From the IMG/VR virus record IMGVR_UViG_3300020048_000111: DNA of 20,000 nucleotides; one strand, 5' to 3'. Shown here piece after piece: positions 2 to 20,000 of this stretch; position 1 is the first letter of the stretch, and the number at the start of each line of letters is the position of its first letter. Under the pieces are notes generated by a model. It was not told where the DNA came from, searched no databases, and saw only the letters and a program-made list of their open reading frames with translations. The DNA is from an uncultured virus (IMG/VR IMGVR_UViG_3300020048_000111) (taxonomy: Duplodnaviria > Heunggongvirae > Uroviricota > Caudoviricetes). The position numbers were made by a program, and so were the translations under genes.

Positions 2-3000
2 AAAGAATTACGTTTCTTTAAAGAAATCCTTGGTGAGAAATTACACAATGATGTTATAGCTGAAACAAAACCTATTGAAGATGTATACACTAAATATGAA
101 AACAGAATCAACACTGCTCTTGATAAATACATTACTAAGAAAACGAATAACTTAAAATGGCTTTTAGAAAGATTTAATATTCTTAAACAAGAAGAAACAG
201 GATGGAATACAGAGAATATTGATTTGCCGGAAAATATGACAGAGAATGAACTTAATGGACATTTAAAGGCATTGTCTATTAATTTCATGATTGCTAATAT
301 TGAAATGCATAAAATTCTTTATTCAGACCCTTATCAATATTGGGATGAATTAAAGCGTATAAAAGCTTTCAACTCTCCTGCACAACCTTTGGTAAATGAT
401 CCTAAAATGAATGCAGCTTATAATAAGGTGTGGAATAAAGGATTTAAAAAAGGTGAAATAGGATATACAGATTTTACAAAATCTTATTTCTCAACAGGAA
501 CATTTGCTGATGTTATTGGTATAATAGACCTCCCTGATTATAAGGAATATGAAGAAACCAATGGTAGTGGTATTATCACCTTTGGTGCTTATAGAAATTT
601 CAGGATAAGGGCAGGAGAATGGAATGATAATGAGGAAGCTCAATATAGGTATGATGTTGCTTGGGAGAAAAGAGATAAAGCAGAAATAGCAAAAAAAGAA
701 GGAAGAGATGTAGAATCAAAAGCTTATTACGATAGTATATCTGTTGAAGAAGCAATGATACTAGAAGGGAAAAATCCACAGGTACAAAGTGCTTATACGC
801 CATTAAAACCTATTGCCAGAGGCAACAAAGCTAATAAGAGGAATTACAATGATGTTGTGATGGATAAGTATGCTCTCTATCCACTTTCTTATAGGATGAT
901 GAAGAGTGTAAATAAAGCAGGAGGTAAGGAAAATTCAAATGCTATTGCTCTCTATAATAAAATGCAGAATGAGAAATTAGATTATATGGTATTTGAAACA
1001 GGTAGAAAGGTAGGGGCAGAACAACTATCTCCTGTTTATAATGTTGATGGTAGCTTTAATACTTCTCCATACAAAGGAATAGTAAATGTTCCTTTTGAAA
1101 TATTAAGTATTCAGGCAGAAGTTCCTTCACATGATGATAACAATGTAACAAGAGGTAGTCAGATTACTAAACTTGTTACAATGGATTTCATGGAAGCAGG
1201 TGTTCCTGTTGATTTTGATGAGAGTAATAAAAATTTCAGTAAAAGGTATAAAGCTTGGTATGCTCTTTCAGAAGAGGCAAAGAAAGAAATTTCTCCTTTA
1301 TATAAAGAAATAATAAATAATCAGAACCTTCTTGAGGAATTAACACAGAAAGGGTATGAAAATTTATTAAAAACTCTTGGTATAAAAGAAGAGAATGGTG
1401 CTTTCACTATAATTGATCTTTCCAAAACAGGAGAAATGTTAAGGGATGAAATCCTTAAAAGAGAGGTGAATGATAACATTAGTAAAGCTCTCTCATCTTT
1501 CTTAGAAGGAAAATCAGTATTGGAAGCTACTCCTGCATATCAACAAATAAGGAACATTCTTTATTCTATTGCAGATAGGGAAGTTATCTCACAAAAAATG
1601 CCAGGAGGTTCTAAGGTACAAATACCCTCTTTATTCTTTGAAGAACAAAGACTTGGTATAAAAAAGATTGCAGGTAAGAAAGGGTATACATCAGATGTAT
1701 TGAGATTTTACTCAGAAGGAGAGAATAAAACTAATACATGTGAAATAATGATAGGAAGATGGTTTGATAGTCCTCTTTCAGATGAAGAACTTTTAAACTA
1801 TTTGAATAACACACCTGAAGGACAGAAAATTCTTTCCGGACTTGCATATAGGATTCCTACACAGAAACAGAATTCAATTGAAGCATTTGTAATTAAACAA
1901 TTCCTTCCAAAGGAATTTGGTGATAGTGTTGTTGTTCCTGCTGCTCTTGTAGAGAAAACAGGAGCTGACTTTGACATTGATAAACTCTTTATGTATTTGA
2001 AGAATGTTATCATGGGAAAGAATGGATTGGAATTAGTTAATTATTTAACAGATGAAAACTCTACAGTTGGTAAGAGGTATTACAATTGGGTAAAAGAGAA
2101 TGTAGATAAGGATGCTAAGAAATATATAAATTTCCTATCCAAAGGAGCAATAAAGGAACTAAGAACTAATTTTAAAGCTAGATTAGATGAAATAAGTAGT
2201 AGTTATAAAACTGCTATTTCTACAAAGAAAGAAGAACTTTTTGAGCAATATGAAGAATTATTCAATGATGTAGATTATGTTCTGAATGTTCAAATGCAGG
2301 ATAACTACATAATGGAATTATTTGATGAAGGTAAAGAGATATTCTTTAGCCTTTCAGATGAAGCAAGAGCAGACTATTGGGTGTTGAAAGCTTCAATGAG
2401 AATGAATAATATTCAGGGGCCAAAAGAGATTGAAAATTATCTTGCTCTTACACTTCGTAAAATTGAAAGAGGAGAACAATCTGAAGATATTGTTAATTTC
2501 TTAAATATGGCTTCTTTATATGAACAGGAGTTAGAAGTATTAGGTGCTACAAAAGAATATGTAGATGCTTATAAAGCTGAAGCTCTTAGGGTATTTAGAG
2601 AAGGTAAGAATGAAACTATACAGGATATAGGAGAACAATCAAAACAGATATCAGCAAATGTTAAAGCTGAATATATAAATACTAAAGAATCTATAAATGT
2701 ACAGGCAGCAGAAGAAATGGCAGAAATACAAGGGCTTCCTTCTCTTGCAGAATTTAGTAGATTTTCTCTCAATAAACAGAATACAAAGAAAGCACTTGAG
2801 AATGCATACATAGAAAGCAGTGAAACTCTTGTTCTTCATCCAAAGAATTACAAGAGGCTCATTCAACCTAACTCAGCAAAGCAATTAAAAGACCTTGCTG
2901 AAGAAATTACCATTAAAACTATAGGGCATAAATTTGATTATGCTAATATCAATAATATGCTTGATATTGGTTTTATGACAAGGCTTAGACATGCTTTTGT

Positions 3001-5509
3001 AACAGGTAAATATGCTATTGGTATTGCTGCTGTTAATCAAACTAACCATTCTCTCAATCAAAGACAACCTATCTTTATTGATAAAGAAAAGCTTAAATTA
3101 GTAAAAGAAGATGCTCATTGGTTGGGTGATGCCACTATTAGATTTGACAAATATAATAAAATTACTGTTGATGGAAGAGTTGTTCCCACACTCTCTATGA
3201 TAACAAATGCTGATGGACAAGATATATCAGATATCATAGGACAATTTATTGATGGGTATGTTGATATATCCAAAGGGCCTTGGATTATGGAACTTGGAGC
3301 TACACCTAATGTTGCTTCTACTTACCTATTTCTTGCTAAACTTGGAGTTCCTATTGATACAATAGCATATTTTATGAATCAACCTATTGTGCAGGATTAT
3401 TTAAGAACGATTGAGAGTGAGGGGTATTCATGGTTGTTTATTGACAAATATGTAAAAGTTGTAAAAGGTGATTATGCTTCTTCTGTTAAAATTCCTTCAG
3501 AGGGGTGGTCTATTCCTTCTAAGAATGTATTAAAGAATTTAGTAGGAAAGAAGGTAGCAGAAATGAATACAAGTGAATTAGCTAATCAAAGGCTTATGTT
3601 AGATGAGTTTTTGAAATATGCTAAAATGGCTGAACATATGTTCCTGGTTACACAAGGTAGTAACTTTGATACAGCTACATTTAATGATCCTTATTTAGTA
3701 TTCAAGAAATTCAAACAACTTGAAAAAGCACAGAGCACCATTATTAGTAGCATTAATAAAGAAGGAAATGTTATTAGTGGCGTAGATGGACTGTTGAATA
3801 ATTCATTTATTGGTACATTAAAAACAAGAATAGAATCATTAAGGGATGCATTAGCAGAGATATTAAAATCAGATCAACCAAGGGTAAGAGGAATTATTGA
3901 AAAGGTTATTACCCCCTATATACAGATGAATGATAATGATTTTGTTAAACTTGCTCAAAAAGCTGTTAATGATTTATTTGATTATGCTCTTCAGACAGAT
4001 ACAGCTTTAAATGAAGAAATAACAGACATTCTTATTAAAAAAGGAGGTGTTGCAAAAGAGGTGGGAACATTTATACAGCATGTAAAGGATAATAAAGGAC
4101 ATCCTTTACATAATAATATTGTTATTAACCTTATGCAGATTGTTCCTTCAGATAAAGCAGGGGATGCTTCTATAACAAATGTTAAGGTGAAGAGTTTAGC
4201 CAATAAGGTGTATGACCAAAATAACCTTATATTTGCATTTAGAGAGATAAGGGATTATTTAAAAGGCCAGGATAGTAAACTTTATGACAGGCTCATTAGA
4301 CTTGCTGTATTACAATCAGGACTTTCTAAATCTACATTATCTTTTACATCTGTAATTCCTTTTGAAGACTTTGAAAAGATATATAATGAGACACTTTCTT
4401 CTTTGGAAAAAGTACCACATTTGGAACAGTTTTATGAATTAGGTGTGTTCCAAAGAAATAATTGGAATAATGATGATATTGTTCCTCACATAAAAGCAAA
4501 ATACATTAAGTTTCCTGCAGGAGGAGGAAAATACAATCCTTCAATGGCTTCCCTTCCTGACAATGTAAAGAAAGCTACAATAGCCGGAGATATACCTCAA
4601 ATGCTTACACAATCGGTTCTTAACAAAGAAGCTAAATCAGACTACATTGTTTATTCATGGGAGGATATTTCTCTTTCTGCTGAAGATAAAAAACAAGGAC
4701 TCACCACAACAGCAAAGAAAAAAGCTTATATGCGTAGAACAGGTGACTTCTCTTATATACAAAAAGGACTTTTCCAAAAGGTGTATGATGATTTTGGTAC
4801 AGCTTTAATTCACAGGGATTACAAGGGAAAGGAATATTTTGTGTACAAAGCTACAAATGCCTGGGGAAATGGCAATAAAGCAAATGAGTTTTATGCAGAA
4901 GACAGACCTTCAGTGATTGATAATGGTTTTATCCCCATTAACAGTAACCCACATGACAATCATAATATAATAGACCTTTTTCTCAAAGAAACTCCAAAAG
5001 CTAAACAACAAACAAATACATCTACTTATGAAATTAATAAACCAAAACAAATAGGTAATACACAAAAAACTAAAACTTCTTGGGCAAGAAAATCAAATAA
5101 TGGGTATGAAGTATCTACCAAGGGTGATAGTAGGTTTAGTGCTTTTAATGCTAAAATAAAAGCAGAAGGAAACAAAAGTATAGAAGAGATATATCAAACA
5201 GAAGTTAAAGGATACAAATCTATCTCTGAAGGGAAAGGAAAACCACCAAAGACAGGATTAAGTAGAGAAGAATCATATAATCAATATAAAGAATTGTGGA
5301 TACAATGGGCTAATGAAAATCCTAATTTAATGCAAGAATTAGCCAATAAAGCACAAGGAAAAGTATTAACAGATATGTTTGCTAATACAGAAGTAAATCA
5401 AGCAAGAGCCTTATCTGAAATACTAAATGATTTTGATTATTATTCTAATGAGAAAACAAACAAACCAAAAGAATTACCAGCAATTTCACGTTCATCTAAA
5501 AAATGTTAA
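2..5509 (+). CDS. Giant virion-associated DNA-directed RNA polymerase (two-barrel, crAss-like), 5'-partial, with a C-terminal accessory domain
   Basis: The frame is open from base 2 (KELRFFKEILGEKLH...), so the listed TTG at 224 is not the true start. YRIPTQ at ~1847-1864 and catalytic GADFDIDKL (DxDxD at 1967-1981) match the motifs of crAss-like virion RNAPs such as phi14:2 gp66. Later blocks GIAAVNQT and FIDGYVDISK also look conserved. Confidence 0.9.
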   Translation, partial: KELRFFKEILGEKLHNDVIAETKPIEDVYTKYENRINTALDKYITKKTNNLKWLLERFNILKQEETGWNTENIDLPENMTENELNGHLKALSINFMIANIEMHKILYSDPYQYWDELKRIKAFNSPAQPLVNDPKMNAAYNKVWNKGFKKGEIGYTDFTKSYFSTGTFADVIGIIDLPDYKEYEETNGSGIITFGAYRNFRIRAGEWNDNEEAQYRYDVAWEKRDKAEIAKKEGRDVESKAYYDSISVEEAMILEGKNPQVQSAYTPLKPIARGNKANKRNYNDVVMDKYALYPLSYRMMKSVNKAGGKENSNAIALYNKMQNEKLDYMVFETGRKVGAEQLSPVYNVDGSFNTSPYKGIVNVPFEILSIQAEVPSHDDNNVTRGSQITKLVTMDFMEAGVPVDFDESNKNFSKRYKAWYALSEEAKKEISPLYKEIINNQNLLEELTQKGYENLLKTLGIKEENGAFTIIDLSKTGEMLRDEILKREVNDNISKALSSFLEGKSVLEATPAYQQIRNILYSIADREVISQKMPGGSKVQIPSLFFEEQRLGIKKIAGKKGYTSDVLRFYSEGENKTNTCEIMIGRWFDSPLSDEELLNYLNNTPEGQKILSGLAYRIPTQKQNSIEAFVIKQFLPKEFGDSVVVPAALVEKTGADFDIDKLFMYLKNVIMGKNGLELVNYLTDENSTVGKRYYNWVKENVDKDAKKYINFLSKGAIKELRTNFKARLDEISSSYKTAISTKKEELFEQYEELFNDVDYVLNVQMQDNYIMELFDEGKEIFFSLSDEARADYWVLKASMRMNNIQGPKEIENYLALTLRKIERGEQSEDIVNFLNMASLYEQELEVLGATKEYVDAYKAEALRVFREGKNETIQDIGEQSKQISANVKAEYINTKESINVQAAEEMAEIQGLPSLAEFSRFSLNKQNTKKALENAYIESSETLVLHPKNYKRLIQPNSAKQLKDLAEEITIKTIGHKFDYANINNMLDIGFMTRLRHAFVTGKYAIGIAAVNQTNHSLNQRQPIFIDKEKLKLVKEDAHWLGDATIRFDKYNKITVDGRVVPTLSMITNADGQDISDIIGQFIDGYVDISKGPWIMELGATPNVASTYLFLAKLGVPIDTIAYFMNQPIVQDYLRTIESEGYSWLFIDKYVKVVKGDYASSVKIPSEGWSIPSKNVLKNLVGKKVAEMNTSELANQRLMLDEFLKYAKMAEHMFLVTQGSNFDTATFNDPYLVFKKFKQLEKAQSTIISSINKEGNVISGVDGLLNNSFIGTLKTRIESLRDALAEILKSDQPRVRGIIEKVITPYIQMNDNDFVKLAQKAVNDLFDYALQTDTALNEEITDILIKKGGVAKEVGTFIQHVKDNKGHPLHNNIVINLMQIVPSDKAGDASITNVKVKSLANKVYDQNNLIFAFREIRDYLKGQDSKLYDRLIRLAVLQSGLSKSTLSFTSVIPFEDFEKIYNETLSSLEKVPHLEQFYELGVFQRNNWNNDDIVPHIKAKYIKFPAGGGKYNPSMASLPDNVKKATIAGDIPQMLTQSVLNKEAKSDYIVYSWEDISLSAEDKKQGLTTTAKKKAYMRRTGDFSYIQKGLFQKVYDDFGTALIHRDYKGKEYFVYKATNAWGNGNKANEFYAEDRPSVIDNGFIPINSNPHDNHNIIDLFLKETPKAKQQTNTSTYEINKPKQIGNTQKTKTSWARKSNNGYEVSTKGDSRFSAFNAKIKAEGNKSIEEIYQTEVKGYKSISEGKGKPPKTGLSREESYNQYKELWIQWANENPNLMQELANKAQGKVLTDMFANTEVNQARALSEILNDFDYYSNEKTNKPKELPAISRSSKKC

Positions 5510-5512
5510 CAG

Positions 5513-8500
5513 ATGCCTTGTAAAATTCAAATCAGACAGAATATAGTATTTAATGTTCAGCAACTTTCTGACAAATATTTAAGCAACTCTCTTGAAGATG
5601 CTAGAGAAGGAGCTATTAAAATAAATCAGATGTATAATGCTGATGTTGTATCTTTTGGTATGACAGGAGGGGAAGATGTTATTACAGCTAATATACATAT
5701 TCCTGAAGAGGTGGTTGATAGATACTATGAGAATGAGGTTTATCTTGAAGAAGAGGATGCAAGAATTTTACAGAATAATGAAATAGAAAGAGGAGGATAT
5801 ACAGAAGAAGATAGAGGAACTTTTTTTCAATTAGGTAATGATAATGAAATAGTTAAAGAAATTAGAAAAACAAAACCATTTACATTTAATGCTCCTGAAG
5901 GTGAACCATCTATAGAATGGGAGTATTCTACAACTATTGATGAAGATATTTATAATTTTACTGCCGGAATATATAATTATTATAATGAAGATACAGAAAC
6001 TGTAGATAAATACTTTGATATAGATTTTGATGTTAATGGTTCTGATGAATTGGTAGGTAAGAATTTATTTGCAAGAAAAAAACAAATAATTCCTATTATA
6101 AATGCTTTTATGACTAAAGCATCTTCTTATCAATCTGTAGATAAAATTAGATTAACTAGTTCACTTGAACAAGGGCCAAAGAAAGCTCAACAAAGGGCTC
6201 TTTTATATAAACGTGTAATGGATGAATTAGGTTTTCAATTTGATTCATTTGCTGATAATGGTGAAACTGTTCTTTATAAAATGCCACAGCGTAATATGAT
6301 GAATCAAACAGAAGATGTTCCTGCTTCAAAAGCATCTCCTGATACAATAGCAAAGGTGAAAGAAGCATGTGCTAAAATGGGAATTAGTATTCAGGCTCTT
6401 TCTGAGTATATAAAGAACAATCCTAATGTTAATACAAAAGGAATTAATGGTCTTGCCGATTTGGTGAAGGGTATCATTGCCCTATCTGAAGGAAGAGAAG
6501 GTGTAGCATTAACAGAAGAAATGGTACATATAGCAACATCTATTCTTGAACAATCATTTCCAAAAATGGTAACAGAAATGATAAGTAAAATAGACAGGTT
6601 TGCTATTTACAAGAAAGTATATGATTCATACAAAGGAAAATATGTTACAAAAGAAGGAAAACCAGATATAAGGAGAATAAAAAAAGAAGCTGTAGATAAG
6701 CTAATTGCTGAATTAATAATTAACAACAATGAGAATGCAACAGAGTTTCCTGAATTAATGGAAGAACAAAACAGAAGTCTTATTAAAAGATGGTGGGAAA
6801 ATATTCTTGATTGGTTCAGAGGGCAATATAGGAAAACAAATATTGACATATTTAATATTGCTTCCAAAGAGATAATGGAGGGTAATCTCCAATTCTATCC
6901 TAAGGAACAACAAGGAGAAGGAATATATTATCAAATAGAAAAGAATGAAGCTGTAGATAGAATATATAACATCTACAAAGAGAAAGCTAGTAGATTAGAA
7001 TTGTTTCCTGAAGAAACAGATAGTTCAGGTAAGGTAATTAAGAAAAGGCATTACACCTTTGATGGTAAAGAAGTAGCAAGGAGTGTAACAGAGAAAACTA
7101 AGGCAAGTAATAAAATGCCTGAGCGTACTGCTGCTCAATTATTGGATGATGAACAAAAGAGGGATTGGGGATTAGCAGGACATGCTTTTATTCAAAATGA
7201 TATTGAGGTTAACTTGATTGATAAGGATGGGTATGCAAGAGAAGTGTTCCTTGATGAGAGAATAAATAGTCCTCTTGATGAAGAGATTACAGATAAATTA
7301 AAAATCTTTAATAGGGAATTAATAAGAAGTTATCCAAAAGGTACAAGATTCCTTATTGAGTTAAAGGTCATAAATGAGAAAGAGAAGGGGCTATTAGCCT
7401 CTACAGTGGATTTTAAGGCAATAGAACCCACTGCTGATGGAAAAGACTTTAGAATTGATACACTCGATTGGAAATTCATGAATATTAATAAAGATCATGA
7501 AGAAGATGTTCCTTGGTATAAACAAAAAGATTGGAAACCTCAAATGGGTGAGTATTCTAAAATAGATAGGGAATATGGTGTTACCTCTAAACAGATTAGG
7601 AAAGCCAGGATGATTCCCTTCCAAATGAATTATGAATATAGGAATACAAAGAATAAAGAAAAGGTGTTATATGCTACATCTATTGAAATAGGTAAACTTG
7701 ATAGTTTAACAGAAACAAATTTATATTTGCTTCCTGTTCCTACAGATATAGAATCAACAGGAAGTGAGAAGATTGATGCTCTTGTTTCCTCTCTTGATAT
7801 GTATTATGAAAAGCTTGCAAAGATGCCTGTATCTCCTTTAGAGAAGGATATAAAGAAAGGGCAATTAGCAGAATTATCAAAAGCTATTAGGGTGCTAAGA
7901 ATGAAAATGGATTTTGAACCCTTGGCTAATGTAGGAAAGACATTCTTGGAAAATGCTAAAAAAGTGTTGGATACATTAAGGGATGTGGATTATTCTACTA
8001 TGTCTCAAAAGGATATTAATAAAAAGTTGGCAGAACTTCTTGAGTTTAAAAAAAGTGCTGAGAAATTTGCTTCTTTGGATAAGGTGTTTCTTTCTTACTA
8101 TCCCAAAAATACTCTTGATGAACAAGGAAGAAAAACTCTGGCTACATTAAGAAGTATTGCAGGAGCAACAGATGTAATGTTAGAAGATATTGTAGATTTA
8201 CAAAAAGAATATACTGTTCAATTTGCTCTTATAGAGGGAATTACAAAAGAAGAGAATAAATCTACAATTCTTGAGCCGGAGAAAGAAATAGGAGGATTTT
8301 ATAGGATGTTATCAGAAGCTTCCCTTCTTTCTTCAAAAATAATAAATATAGCTACAAACTATATCCTCAATGTAAAGGGAGAAACAAATATTCTTATTGA
8401 AAAAGAAACAAAGAAATTTGGCACTTTATTATTGGCATTAGAGAATATTGCTAAATCAAAAGGAAAAAGTGCTTTTGATTTAATAGCAAAGGTGAAAGAT

Positions 8501-10976: not shown

Positions 10977-11021
10977 ACACTAAAATAAAAAAATAGCAAA
11001 AGGAAAAACAACTAATAAATG

Positions 11022-11029
11022 TATATTTG
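11022..11029 (+). promoter_or_regulatory. Possible Bacteroidota sigma-A -7 element (TAnnTTTG) upstream of the peptidase
   Basis: TATATTTG lies 16 bp before the ATG at 11046 in an A-rich intergenic stretch. No matching -33 TTG seen at the expected spacing. Confidence 0.35.
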
Positions 11030-11045
11030 TAAGAGCAAAGAGCCT

Positions 11046-11519
11046 ATGAAACTCTCAGAACATTTAACATTAGCAGAAGTAATTCGCAGTGATACTGCAA
11101 AGAGAAATGGTATTAGTAATATACCTACAGATAATCATCTTGATAGTTTAAAAATTCTTGCTGAAAAGATATTTGAACCTATAAGAACTCATTTTGATGT
11201 TCCTATTTATGTATCAAGTGGGTATAGAAGTGCAGAGTTAAATAAACTAATAAAAGGAGCCACATCAAGTCAGCATTTAAAAGGTGAAGCACTAGATTTA
11301 GATCAAGATGGTTCTCCTTATGGCATTACAAATGCTAACGTATTTAATTACATTAAAGACCATCTCTCATTTGATCAATTAATTTGGGAAGCAGGAAATA
11401 ATCAAAATCCTGATTGGGTACATGTAAGCTTTAATACTTCATCCGGAGGAATACAAAGGAAACAAGTATTAAGGATGACAAAATTTGGAGGAGCAATTCA
11501 ATACCTACCTTATAAGTAA
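11046..11519 (+). CDS. Peptidase M15A family Zn peptidoglycan hydrolase (probable endolysin)
   Basis: SSGYRSAELN...SSQHLKGEALD...FDQLIWE...WVHVS carries the H-x6-D...H Zn ligands of M15. The start is more likely the ATG at 11046 (MKLSEHLTL) than 11019. Confidence 0.9.
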   Translation: MKLSEHLTLAEVIRSDTAKRNGISNIPTDNHLDSLKILAEKIFEPIRTHFDVPIYVSSGYRSAELNKLIKGATSSQHLKGEALDLDQDGSPYGITNANVFNYIKDHLSFDQLIWEAGNNQNPDWVHVSFNTSSGGIQRKQVLRMTKFGGAIQYLPYK

Positions 11520-14668: not shown

Positions 14669-14911
14669 ATGATACCAAATAAAAGAGATTTAAAGGGTTT
14701 TGTTAGACTTGATGGTAGTGGGCGCACTGTAAGCAGTTCATTGATACTCAGGAAAAAGATGCCTAAGGTGGGCAAATGGATGGAAGTGCAAACATATGAA
14801 TGTTGCAATTACACAACTACCACAAGCACCTCCACAACTGCTAGTCCTACCACTACTACTACAAGTACCACAGCAACACCAACAACTACAACAACCACAA
14901 CTGTTCAATAA
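14669..14911 (+). CDS. Small basic protein with DGxGR head, CC motif and mucin-like Thr/Ser tail (paralog 1)
   Basis: LKGFVRLDGSGRTV...MPKVGKWMEV...ECCNY followed by 30 aa containing 22 Thr and 4 Ser. Confidence 0.85.
   Translation: MIPNKRDLKGFVRLDGSGRTVSSSLILRKKMPKVGKWMEVQTYECCNYTTTTSTSTTASPTTTTTSTTATPTTTTTTTVQ
14813..14902 (+). repeat. Low-complexity ACN-codon tract encoding TTTTSTSTTASPTTTTTSTTATPTTTTTTT
   Basis: Mixed ACA/ACT/ACC codons in frame within 14669..14911. Confidence 0.9.
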
Positions 14912-14920
14912 TCTAATATT

Positions 14921-15118
14921 ATGGCATACATAGAAAACCCAACACCAAGCCCTTTTCCTAAATGGAAATTGAAATCTTTTGCACGAAGAGATGGTAATGG
15001 AAGAGTAATTCCAGGAAGTAATGTTTCACGTAGAACCATGCCCAAGGGGGGGGATTGGTTTGAAATTCCACCTACACAATGTTGCACAGGTACAACTACA
15101 ACTTTAACACCAACATAA
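14921..15118 (+). CDS. Small protein with DGxGR head, CC motif and short Thr tail (paralog 2)
   Basis: LKSFARRDGNGRVI...MPKGGDWFEI...QCCTGTTTTLTPT aligns without gaps to the upstream gene. Confidence 0.85.
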   Translation: MAYIENPTPSPFPKWKLKSFARRDGNGRVIPGSNVSRRTMPKGGDWFEIPPTQCCTGTTTTLTPT

Positions 15119-15121
15119 GAA

Positions 15122-15526
15122 ATGGCTATTTTTCCTAAAAATATGATGAATAATGCTTCTGGAGAATTAACTCTTGAGAGCATTGCAGGTAAGTTAACTT
15201 GGTTTCATATTGAGTTAAATTTACTACATTGGCAAACAATGAGTCTTGCAGAACATCAATGCACTGGCATTCTTTATGATTATGTGCATGATTTTCAAGA
15301 TTCAACTATGGAGAAACTGATGGGATATGCTAATAGACGTGTAGGTGTTTATAAAATTGATCCATTAAATATGATGTCTATATTAGCTGTTGTAAATGAA
15401 TTATTATCTTTTGCTTCAAGTTTAAAAGCTTATGGAGAAAATAATTCTTATCATGATATATGTAATCTGGCAGATTCATTATCAGGAGAAGCAGCTAAAG
15501 CACGATACTTATTAACTCTCTCCTAA
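15122..15526 (+). CDS. Ferritin/Dps-like four-helix protein (phage DUF5856-like)
   Basis: LLHWQT..AEH...LYD....QD..ME..MG and C-terminal YLLTL resemble the Dps HW-x-H-x-D-x-E pattern in short phage ferritin-like proteins. Confidence 0.72.
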   Translation: MAIFPKNMMNNASGELTLESIAGKLTWFHIELNLLHWQTMSLAEHQCTGILYDYVHDFQDSTMEKLMGYANRRVGVYKIDPLNMMSILAVVNELLSFASSLKAYGENNSYHDICNLADSLSGEAAKARYLLTLS

Positions 15527-16956: not shown

Positions 16957-17523
16957 ATGAGCAGAGATGAACAACAAAAAGAAGAAATCTGGAAACCTAT
17001 TAAAGGATTTGAAGACAGATATCAAATAAGTAACTATGGTAATGTAGAGAGTTTAACTAGAGAAGTTACAGAGTATAGACGTACTTATATCCGAAAAGGA
17101 AAAATACTAAATAAGTATTACGATAAAGAAGGGTATTATAAGGTGAAATTATACAAAGGAGATGCAACTTTTAGAAATGCTCCTGTACATAGATTAATTG
17201 CTGAAACATTTTTAGATAATTCTAATAATTATAAGGAAGTAAATCACAAAGATGGTAATCCAAATAACAATTATATAGATAATTTAGAATGGTGTTCAAA
17301 AAATCAGAATGTAAAACATGCTTATGATACAGGATTAAAAAAATTAGAGAATTATACAGGGGAAGGAAATGCATGTTCAAAATTAACTAAAGAGCAAGTT
17401 ATATCCATAAGAGAAGAATATGCAACAGGAACTACATCTTTAAATAAATTAGCTAAGAAGTATAGTGTGGTAATGGGGAATATTCATTCAATCATAAAAC
17501 GTAATACTTGGAAATATGTTTAA
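16957..17523 (+). CDS. Free-standing NUMOD4-HNH homing endonuclease with C-terminal HTH-like DNA-binding region
   Basis: EEIWKPIKGFEDRYQISNYG (NUMOD4); VHRLIAETF...VNHKDGNPNNNYIDNLEW (HNH); SKLTKEQV..IRE...LAKKYSV...TWKYV. Confidence 0.93.
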   Translation: MSRDEQQKEEIWKPIKGFEDRYQISNYGNVESLTREVTEYRRTYIRKGKILNKYYDKEGYYKVKLYKGDATFRNAPVHRLIAETFLDNSNNYKEVNHKDGNPNNNYIDNLEWCSKNQNVKHAYDTGLKKLENYTGEGNACSKLTKEQVISIREEYATGTTSLNKLAKKYSVVMGNIHSIIKRNTWKYV

Positions 17524-19000: not shown

Positions 19001-20000
19001 ATGGCTATAGGAAAATTTAAAAGTTTAGTTGGACTTTTCACACATGTGAACCCTTTTCCGGTTCCATCGCTGCAATCATTTGCAAGTGATTTAACCGTTA
19101 TCCAGGTTGGTGCTGATTATTATTTTAAGGCTTTAGTTGGTGAAAATCTTTTAATTACCGGATATGACTTCCCGACTGGATGGACTAAAGGATTTCCGTA
19201 CAAATCGGCTGCAACAATTGATATTTTCGGACAAACAGGTGTTCCGGTTATTTCCTTATTTCAAAACTTTGATTATATAGACCAATTTTTTACAAAGCAT
19301 GTTGCTCAGGTAGTTGATGGGAATGGCGTCGAAACATCAGAGGCTTATGTGAGTGCTATTGTAGCTTATTCCGCACNNNNNNNNNNGCTTGTTGATGCTA
19401 ATCTGACAGCAGCTAATACTTATTTTGCAGTACCGGAAAAAGGTACAGCATATTGGGTATCTCCTACCGGAGCAGATGCAGCAGCAGGATCGGAGGCAGC
19501 ACCCTGGCAAACAAGTGCTAAATATAGTGCCGTAACTGATGGTACTACTATTTATCAGAAATCTGATACCATTGCACCTAATAATTCGAGTGCTATTCTA
19601 CTTTACGCTTACAATAACATAATAAAAGCAATAGGTAAAGCAGTATTTACAAGCGTTCCTAATTCCTATGCTGCAAGGATAAGAACTAATGCAAACACTT
19701 TGCAACGGTTAATTTTGAATTTAAACGGGAGTAGTGCTACTATTGCTCAGGTTAACAGTACGGGGGAATCTCTTGCTGTTAATAGTAAATGGTCAATGAT
19801 ACAGTTGATAATTAATGCAGTATCAAAAGTTAATAATATTATAAGCGGGCATACAAAGTTAATTGATGGTTGTATAATTAAAGGGGATGCTGCTGCAAAT
19901 ATTTTAGTAAACGAGGGTACAGAAAATTACACAATATCAAATAATTTATTTTTAGCTACATCAGATTATTATGGGCTTGATTTAAGTAATACAGGAACGG
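19001..20000 (+). CDS. Beta-helix tailspike/depolymerase-like protein, 3'-partial and absent from the ORF track
   Basis: ATG at 19001 (MAIGKFKSLVGLF...) is open to the window end and stays in frame across the N gap. YWVSPTGADAAAGSEAAPWQT is the typical cap motif preceding pectin-lyase-like beta-helices, followed by Asn/Ile-rich strands (IDGCIIKG, TISNNLF). Confidence 0.7.
   Translation, partial: MAIGKFKSLVGLFTHVNPFPVPSLQSFASDLTVIQVGADYYFKALVGENLLITGYDFPTGWTKGFPYKSAATIDIFGQTGVPVISLFQNFDYIDQFFTKHVAQVVDGNGVETSEAYVSAIVAYSAXXXXLVDANLTAANTYFAVPEKGTAYWVSPTGADAAAGSEAAPWQTSAKYSAVTDGTTIYQKSDTIAPNNSSAILLYAYNNIIKAIGKAVFTSVPNSYAARIRTNANTLQRLILNLNGSSATIAQVNSTGESLAVNSKWSMIQLIINAVSKVNNIISGHTKLIDGCIIKGDAAANILVNEGTENYTISNNLFLATSDYYGLDLSNTGT
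19377..19386. other. Assembly gap (10 N)
   Basis: Ten N characters; the true gap length is unknown. Confidence 0.99.

What the first reader, a model, noticed from the sequence alone, without database searches (positions are those of the whole stretch)
5078..5431. NADAR-like domain fused to the C-terminus of the virion RNA polymerase: possible injected anti-DarT activity
Seen: after a low-complexity K/Q/T/N linker the RNAP ends in a discrete ~118-aa domain, YEVSTKGDSRFSAFNAKIKAEGNKSIEEIYQTEVKG...YKELWIQWANENP...LTDMFA...NQARAL. From memory this resembles NADAR/DarG1-type motifs (E[IV]S[ST]K...LSAFN...S[VI]ExxxQ..K ... D.F ... NxQA). Known: DarG1-type NADARs remove ADP-ribose from guanine in DNA, and virion RNAPs enter the cell with the genome. 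Inference: a counter-defence enzyme delivered before any gene expression and tethered to the polymerase.
Basis: partly seen in the sequence, partly recalled or inferred. Interest (0 to 1): 0.72.

Follow-up and report, generated by a model that had tools for sequence, protein, structure and literature searches.

The report
Mini DarG1-type NADAR on virion polymerase
A crAss-like phage has a small enzyme domain, resembling the bacterial antitoxin that strips ADP-ribose marks off DNA, in a swappable slot at the end of the RNA polymerase that such phages inject; it probably arrives ready-made to undo a host defence, but activity and target are untested.

Summary
Observation confirmed. Window 5078-5431 is a discrete 118-aa domain near the end of a crAss-type virion RNA polymerase (profile hit to phi14:2 gp66, E 3e-42). 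Its model (pLDDT 97.5) matches three NADAR structures best of 48,161 chains (Z 8.9, 7.5, 7.5; next 4.0). Pfam misses it (PHROG 9995, unknown function). Through intermediate relatives it links to DarG1, not to YbiA or T4 gp30.3, and E36, K44, K53 and D99 align with DarG1 E88, K95, K115 and D171. It is a mobile cassette: absent from 68 of 68 polymerase-relative loci, replaced by a SLOG-fold domain in the closest relative (87% identical), yet fused into 32 distant crAss polymerases and two N4-type ones, and stand-alone in phiKZ-like phages. Best reading: an orphan, injected guanine de-ADP-ribosylase (about 50%). Main rival: it processes soluble ADP-ribose products. DarT1 in the host was not tested. 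This scan has noted NADAR-on-crAss-polymerase fusions several times on other DNA; the DarG1-type minimal family is the addition. New variant of a known kind; interest 0.5.

The parts
2..5509 (+). 3' part (1835 aa, 5' end outside the window) of a giant crAss-type virion RNA polymerase gene; the closest relative L001 is about 4,800 aa
1961..1984 (+). GADFDIDK catalytic motif of the two-barrel RNAP (residue 654 of the window ORF)
4991..5077 (+). K/Q/T/N-rich linker; DNA similarity to the closest relative L001 ends at 4983, which marks the left edge of the swapped cassette
5078..5431 (+). 118-aa minimal NADAR-fold domain (PHROG 9995 family), DarG1-type
5183..5185 (+). E36, aligned with DarG1 E88 (and by the same numbering AdfN E36); invariant in 149 of 149 rows
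   Evidence: PMC11543638, PMC11257639
5207..5209 (+). K44, aligned with DarG1 K95 (phosphate-binding lysine) across a one-residue insertion; 99% conserved
5234..5236 (+). K53, aligned with DarG1 K115, the lysine conserved among DarT1-associated NADARs; 98% conserved
5372..5374 (+). D99 at the end of the last strand, aligned with DarG1 D171 (Glu in YbiA, His in gp30.3); invariant in 149 of 149 rows
5432..5506 (+). 25-aa tail ending in a terminal Cys (5504-5506), one of only two Cys in the 1835 aa
5513..10948 (+). Next giant ORF (1811 aa, Cys at position 3), probably the neighbouring cargo protein (inferred from gene order); its first ~260 codons also differ from L001

Best explanation
The domain is an orphan, stripped-down DarG1-type NADAR glycohydrolase that removes ADP-ribose from guanine in nucleic acid, most likely single-stranded phage DNA modified by a host DarT1-like toxin. 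It sits in an exchangeable cargo slot of the virion RNA polymerase, so it is packaged and ejected with the polymerase and is present before any phage gene is expressed. Tethering would place it on the single-stranded template that this polymerase type prefers and that DarT1 modifies. Shown here: the fusion, the polymerase identity, the predicted fold, the residue correspondence and the cassette exchange. Inferred: catalytic activity, packaging and ejection in this phage, retention on the polymerase after ejection, and the target toxin.
For: Fold: the top 3 of 48,161 chains are NADARs, DarG1 first (8bat Z 8.9, rmsd 3.3, 113 aligned; 8bau 7.5; YbiA 2b3w 7.5; next 4.0); Foldseek also ranks 8bat first (prob 0.94, E 0.14, TM 0.59). 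Descent: family to intermediates hhalign 100%, intermediates to DarG1 97.1%, E 6e-11; the intermediate HMM scores >15 bits on 121 of 122 DarG1-family proteins, 5.8 on YbiA, -1.2 on gp30.3 and >15 on 0 of 283 reversed decoys. Three intermediates pass the Pfam NADAR-DarT1 cut-off (P0035; L142 and L144). Residues: 12 columns invariant across 13 sequences that include three DarG1 proteins encoded beside DarT. All phage NADARs tested in PMC11825919 counter DarTG1 and none DarTG2. gp66 is translocated with the DNA and transcribes single-stranded DNA far better than double-stranded; DarT1 showed no activity on dsDNA. The domain is fused to 32 crAss-type polymerases among the best 150 representatives and to two N4-type virion polymerases (P0062; P0067). 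No DarT-like ORF lies in loci L070-L144, so it is not the antitoxin of a neighbouring toxin.
Against: Direct similarity to DarG1 is weak: no Pfam, PADLOC or NCBIfam hit for the window domain; hhalign family vs DarG1 0.8% and 19.7%, E 1e-3. Z 8.9 is only just above the range the tool calls middling. The domain lacks about 50 N-terminal residues and internal segments of DarG1, which may change specificity. Its fusion partners are often SLOG, DUF4326, Macro and 2OG-Fe(II) domains, and the closest relative has a SLOG-fold domain in the slot; Iyer et al. argue from such contexts that phage NADARs mainly act on soluble ADP-ribose derivatives (PMC9503650). None of the 35 plasmids with a DarG1 match is from Bacteroidota, the presumed host phylum (a weak test). 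Giant crAss polyproteins are thought to be cleaved, so the tether may not last.
Confidence: 0.5

Rival explanations
1. It is an active NADAR, but its substrate is a soluble ADP-ribose derivative (an immune signal or an NAD breakdown product), processed together with SLOG, Macro and DUF4326 domains in an injected NAD/ADP-ribose toolkit.
For: The slot in L001 holds a DprA/SLOG-fold domain (Foldseek prob 1.00, E 9e-4, TM 0.47) whose homologues lie directly N-terminal of this NADAR in P0077 and P0042 (E 2e-59, 3e-51). Among 58 carriers scanned, Pfam found DUF4326 in 8, SLOG families in 9 and Macro in 1. Published contextual argument in PMC9503650.
Against: It keeps the DarG1-specific K115 and D171 equivalents; K115 was linked to DNA or DarT1 recognition rather than catalysis. 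Every phage NADAR tested acted on guanine-ADPr DNA.
Confidence: 0.25
2. It removes ADP-ribose from nucleic acid, but the mark is made by another host transferase (an RNA-modifying or pierisin/YarT-like enzyme), for example on the nascent early transcripts, not by DarT1.
For: NADARs reverse guanine-ADPr from unrelated toxins and some reverse cytidine-ADPr (PMC11125620; PMC12945103 abstract). DarG1 was found in only 3 of 400 genomes of one sampled class, whereas this family is widespread in phages.
Against: Its nearest characterised relative is DarG1, not YbiA. No such transferase was identified here.
Confidence: 0.15
3. The domain is a binding module or a passenger: it binds ADP-ribose or DNA without catalysis, or it is cut off during maturation and not delivered.
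For: It is much shorter than solved NADARs (118 vs 168-219 aa) and dispensable: 0 of 68 polymerase-relative loci have it. Cleavage of fused polyproteins is proposed in 10.1101/2020.03.07.982082.
Against: E36 and D99 are invariant and K44 99% conserved in 149 rows. The domain lies upstream of the terminal Cys that 44 of 46 distinct polymerases keep, so it is inside the conserved frame of the protein.
Confidence: 0.1

Closest known systems
DarG1, the DarT1-associated NADAR antitoxin (Geobacter lovleyi NADAR, PDB 8BAT; Pfam PF22397; PMC11543638)
   Same: Predicted fold (Z 8.9, 113 of 118 residues aligned); E88, K95, K115 and D171 equivalents; order of motifs along the chain.
   Different: About half the length; one-residue insertion before the catalytic Lys; below the Pfam cut-off; no DarT gene beside it; fused to a virion polymerase.
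AdfN (T4 gp30.3) and the Bas32/Bas60 phage NADARs, anti-DarTG1 factors (PMC11825919)
   Same: Orphan phage NADAR with the essential Glu and Lys; the same proposed role.
   Different: No detectable sequence similarity to T4 gp30.3; Asp, not His, in the last strand; T4 gp30.3 is a stand-alone gene, not part of an ejected protein. Bas32 and Bas60 were not compared here.
phi14:2 gp66 virion RNA polymerase (PDB 6VR4) and crAss001 cargo proteins gp47/49/50 (10.1101/2020.03.07.982082; PMC10172136)
   Same: Homologous catalytic core with DFDID (E 3e-42); a giant ORF followed by another giant ORF.
   Different: No NADAR is reported on these in the passages read; this polymerase is 22-28% identical to the crassvirus polymerases listed.
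Polyvalent virion proteins and virion-packaged NAD+/ADPr domains (PMC5512222; PMC9503650)
   Same: Unrelated enzyme domains fused into injected proteins, including N4-type virion RNAPs; packaged NADARs predicted in general terms.
   Different: PMC5512222 has no occurrence of 'NADAR' in its main text and PMC9503650 none of 'crAss'; the supplements were not read.

Membership tests
NADAR superfamily | YbiA/NADAR alpha+beta fold | tested here: met
   Predicted model; top 3 of 48,161 chains are NADARs (Z 8.9/7.5/7.5, rmsd 3.2-3.6, 108-113 aligned; next Z 4.0).
NADAR superfamily | Conserved Glu and Lys (DarG1 E88/K95) | tested here: met
   E36 and K44 align with them; 100% and 99% conserved. Mapping is by sequence alignment; no residue-level superposition was returned.
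NADAR superfamily | N-glycohydrolase activity on guanine-ADP-ribose | not testable with these tools
   Needs an assay.
DarG1 / BC4488 subfamily (PF22397) | Asp in the last strand (D171) and the DarT1-associated Lys (K115) | tested here: met
   D99 and K53 are invariant in the 13-row alignment with three true DarG1 proteins.
DarG1 / BC4488 subfamily (PF22397) | Score above the Pfam PF22397 cut-off | tested here: not met
   No hit for the window domain; 2 of 64 family members hit, one above the cut-off.
DarG1 / BC4488 subfamily (PF22397) | Encoded in an operon with a DarT1 toxin | tested here: not met
   No DarT hit among 16 window proteins scanned and no DarT-like ORF in family loci L070-L144. 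The rest of this phage genome is not held.
T4 gp30.3 / AdfN family (PF08010) | Family profile match and His in the last strand | tested here: not met
   No PF08010 hit (where T4 gp30.3 itself scores E 5e-71); hhalign 0.1%; the residue is Asp.
YbiA subfamily (PF08719) | Family profile match and Glu in the last strand | tested here: not met
   No PF08719 hit; YbiA scores 0.4 and 5.8 bits on the family and intermediate HMMs.
crAss-type virion RNA polymerase | DFDxD motif in a core homologous to phi14:2 gp66 | tested here: met
crAss-type virion RNA polymerase | Packaged in the virion and translocated into the host | not testable with these tools
   Shown for gp66 and virion presence for crAss001 proteins; inferred here.
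Anti-DarT factor (Adf) | Restores phage growth against DarTG1 | not testable with these tools
   Needs plaque assays; DarTG1 in the host lineage could not be surveyed.
DUF4326 (PF14216) | Family profile match | tested here: not met
   Atlas features scored 0.84, a lead only; no Pfam hit; weak partial fold matches, TM 0.31-0.36. DUF4326 is a frequent fusion partner.

The most novel reading that the evidence does not exclude
PHROG 9995 is an unrecognised minimal branch of DarG1 that phages use as an anti-DarT1 enzyme in two forms: stand-alone in phiKZ-like and some N4-like phages (in phiKZ a mis-annotated gene behind DNA polymerase gp82, the counterpart of the anti-DarT2 macrodomain AdfM), and fused again and again into two unrelated kinds of injected RNA polymerase. 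There it cleans ADP-ribose off the single-stranded template as the polymerase starts transcription: a pre-loaded, polymerase-tethered DNA repair counter-defence.
Probability: 0.3. Interest if true: 0.75.

Novelty: new variant of a known kind. Interest (0 to 1): 0.5.

Why it matters
DarTG1 cuts phage transcription and replication, so a counter-measure that needs gene expression could come too late; an enzyme carried on the injected polymerase would avoid that. The family is small, missed by Pfam, and present in the model phages phiKZ, PhiPA3 and 201phi2-1, so the idea can be tested without culturing this phage. It would also give a function to a PHROG family of unknown function and show that virion polymerases have exchangeable slots for NAD/ADP-ribose enzymes.

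Tried and rejected
Sequence searches of the PDB with the domain, its alignment and the whole ORF gave nothing significant. Pfam, PADLOC and NCBIfam do not recognise the window domain. The Atlas suggestion DUF4326 (0.84) was rejected on fold and profile. Direct hhalign to three DarG1 proteins or one was not significant; only the route through intermediates was. A viral scan with the single domain found no relative; a 12-row alignment found 62 loci. My by-eye labels for the L001 tail were not confirmed by Pfam, NCBIfam, phmmer or the Atlas; the SLOG-like fold of its first domain came from the model, and its second domain remains unnamed. The script labelled nine insertions 'right after DFDxD'; three of them (P0080, P0115, P0124) lie before the motif, inside the core. 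The motif pattern (119 of 120 DarG1-family proteins, 0 of 2000 shuffles) was written after seeing the alignment and is only a chance control. The tree (187 rows, 125 columns, split domains left out) has modest support and was not used to order events. DarTG1 in Bacteroidota could not be surveyed: no genome handle of that phylum was available, and one paper search gave nothing usable. No RNA holder was listed. No complex was predicted: the open question is substrate, not a protein partner.

Full report
Observation. The window begins inside a long open frame (2..5509, 1835 aa). A profile of 36 homologous core regions hits phi14:2 gp66 (6VR4) at E 3e-42 with GxDFDIDK invariant, so this is the 3' part of a crAss-type virion RNA polymerase. 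Its matches among named phages include human-gut crassviruses, Bacteroides phages and a Cellulophaga phage; the 25 rows listed of 104 are 25-28% identical. The host is presumed to be Bacteroidota and is not shown. The best-matching sequencing runs are aquatic metagenomes.

Fold. An AlphaFold2 model from 64 sequences has pLDDT 97.5 and pTM 0.90. Foldseek ranks G. lovleyi NADAR (8bat) first, weakly (prob 0.94, E 0.14, TM 0.59). The full comparison with 48,161 chains puts three NADARs on top: 8bat Z 8.9 (rmsd 3.3, 113 aligned), 8bau 7.5 and YbiA 7.5, then a drop to 4.0. The Z values are moderate; the gap and the coverage carry the argument.

Which NADAR. Pfam, PADLOC and NCBIfam do not recognise the domain; PHROGs places it in family 9995, unknown function (E 4e-38). 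Of 64 aligned relatives, two hit PF22397 (NADAR-DarT1), one above the cut-off, as do two Bacillaceae relatives. I took three full-length PF22397 proteins from 3 of 400 sampled genomes, confirmed a DarT gene beside each and one as a close 8bat relative (E 3e-82). In a 13-row alignment of the window domain, relatives, intermediates and these DarG1 proteins, 12 columns are invariant. L147 residues E89, K96, K116 and D172 have the spacing of E. coli C7 E88, K95, K115 and D171, the residues needed for hydrolysis or rescue (PMC11543638, passages); they align with E36, K44, K53 and D99 of the domain. Over 149 rows these are 100, 99, 98 and 100% conserved, whereas E37 is 73%. The last-strand residue separates the subfamilies: Glu in YbiA, Asp in the DarT1-associated group, His in gp30.3 (PMC11125620, abstract, introduction and start of results). 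The direct profile link is weak (0.8%; 19.7%). Through ten intermediates it is clear: 100% and then 97.1% (E 6e-11), and the intermediate HMM gives >15 bits to 121 of 122 DarG1-family proteins, to neither YbiA nor gp30.3, and to 0 of 283 reversed decoys. So it works like DarG1 by anatomy, but it is not filed as DarG1: it is half the length, below the family cut-off and has no toxin beside it.

A swappable cassette. None of 68 loci fetched with the polymerase core has the domain (the same HMM scores the window at E 2e-53; two loci are cut before the C-terminus and many are near-duplicates). The closest, L001, is 87% identical over residues 1-1666 and then differs; DNA similarity stops at 4983 and resumes at 6302; its 99.7-kb record has no match to the family. 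In the slot it carries a domain whose model matches DprA, a SLOG-fold protein (prob 1.00, E 9e-4, TM 0.47; that DprA belongs to the SLOG superfamily is recalled). Conversely, of the best 150 of 621 representatives, 72 are over 1000 aa and 32 hold a crAss polymerase core, with the domain last (5), in the C-terminal part (16), inside or just after the core (9) or N-terminal (2). In these 32 the core is 21-37% identical to the window and the domain 43-68%; the nearest domains in the tree are on such distant polymerases. Two carriers are N4-type virion polymerases. Of 62 viral loci, 27 are small stand-alone genes, 15 other ORFs over 1000 aa, 13 crAss polymerase ORFs, 6 separate ORFs near one and 1 mid-sized. 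Among named phages 106 records match, 69 of them Pseudomonas phages, chiefly phiKZ-like, plus N4-like Delftia and Achromobacter phages. One scan of 185,579 genomes found 9 loci (pattern-based, so a floor). Fusion partners in 58 scanned carriers include DUF4326, SLOG, Macro, 2OG-Fe(II) and a second NADAR.

Mechanism. gp66 is translocated with the DNA, transcribes early genes and strongly prefers single-stranded templates (10.1101/2020.03.07.982082, passages); crAss001 virions contain the polymerase-associated proteins (PMC10172136, passages). DarT1 modifies guanine in ssDNA and not dsDNA, and DarTG systems reduce transcription and replication (PMC13309987, passages). Three unrelated phage NADARs counter DarTG1 (PMC11825919 and its preprint PMC11257639, passages). 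The simplest reading is an injected guanine de-ADP-ribosylase (0.5). Against it, the company it keeps fits the argument that phage NADARs mostly act on soluble ADP-ribose derivatives (PMC9503650 and PMC7824862, passages; 0.25). Another nucleic-acid transferase could be the target (PMC12945103, abstract and outline only; 0.15), or the domain could be non-catalytic or cleaved off (0.1). The host-side test is missing: none of 35 DarG1-bearing plasmids is from Bacteroidota, two earlier scan notes report DarT1 not found in that phylum, and I could not check this.

Novelty. Packaged NADARs are predicted in general (PMC9503650), polyvalent virion polymerases are known (PMC5512222, passages, no 'NADAR' in the main text), and anti-DarT1 NADARs are proven. 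A search for Crassvirales, RNA polymerase and NADAR together found 0 papers; searches listed none that, by title or the passages read, describes this family or fusion. The library lacks most subscription papers and no supplements were read. This scan has noted NADAR domains on crAss polymerases at least eight times on other DNA; a word search for the DarG1-type minimal family found no note. Verdict: real, a new variant of a known kind, interest 0.5. The most useful addition is that the family is DarG1-type and can be tested in phiKZ.

Noticed in passing
window 5504-5521; loci L001-L067: The polymerase ends in Cys and the next ORF starts MPCK. Among 46 distinct loci, 44 polymerases have a Cys in the last 6 residues (most have only 1-2 Cys in 2,000-4,800 aa) and 43 next genes a Cys in the first 8; the shorter polymerases also have one at position 3-5. 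This suggests head-to-tail disulfide links, as between gp27 and gp26 of cyanophage A4 (PMC12002296, passages). The scan has noted this many times.
   Followed up: partly
L072:3992-4360 (phiKZ NC_004629.1, behind gp82): phiKZ has a full 122-codon member of this family that opens with ATA overlapping the gp82 stop; the record annotates only the last 38 codons as PHIKZ082.1. In 201phi2-1 the gene is annotated whole as gp143 behind the gp82 homologue.
   Followed up: partly
L123, L130-L133, L116-L118; P0043, P0075, P0093, P0141, P0143: In several carriers the domain matches in two pieces, with 15 to about 250 residues between them; in P0093 and P0141 Pfam finds a SLOG domain in the gap.
   Followed up: no
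L087, L088, P0080, P0115, P0124: The domain is inserted inside the polymerase core, about 200 residues before the DFDxD motif.
   Followed up: no
L137, L138 (cyanobacterial genomes): The domain lies in ORFs of over 2,300 aa with helicase and RNase H-like Pfam matches, plus SLOG in L137: a polyvalent protein outside virion polymerases.
   Followed up: no
L144, L070 (Bacillota): Intermediate members are fused to a macrodomain (Pfam Macro and a partial DarG match in L144): a possible two-in-one anti-DarT1/DarT2 protein; no DarT was found in the L144 genome.
   Followed up: partly
window 5513-6301: The N-terminal ~260 codons of the next giant ORF also differ from L001 while the rest is 84-88% identical: a second variable slot facing the first.
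   Followed up: no
window 14669-15118: Two adjacent small ORFs share a motif (R.DG.GR.....) and end in Thr-rich tails after a CC pair; probably paralogues.
   Followed up: no
window 15122-15526; 16957-17523; 11019-11519: A ferritin/Dps-like ORF (DUF5856, below cut-off; PHROG 858), a NUMOD4-HNH endonuclease and a peptidase M15 endolysin.
   Followed up: no
window about 19375-19390: A short run of N in the last ORF (X residues).
   Followed up: no
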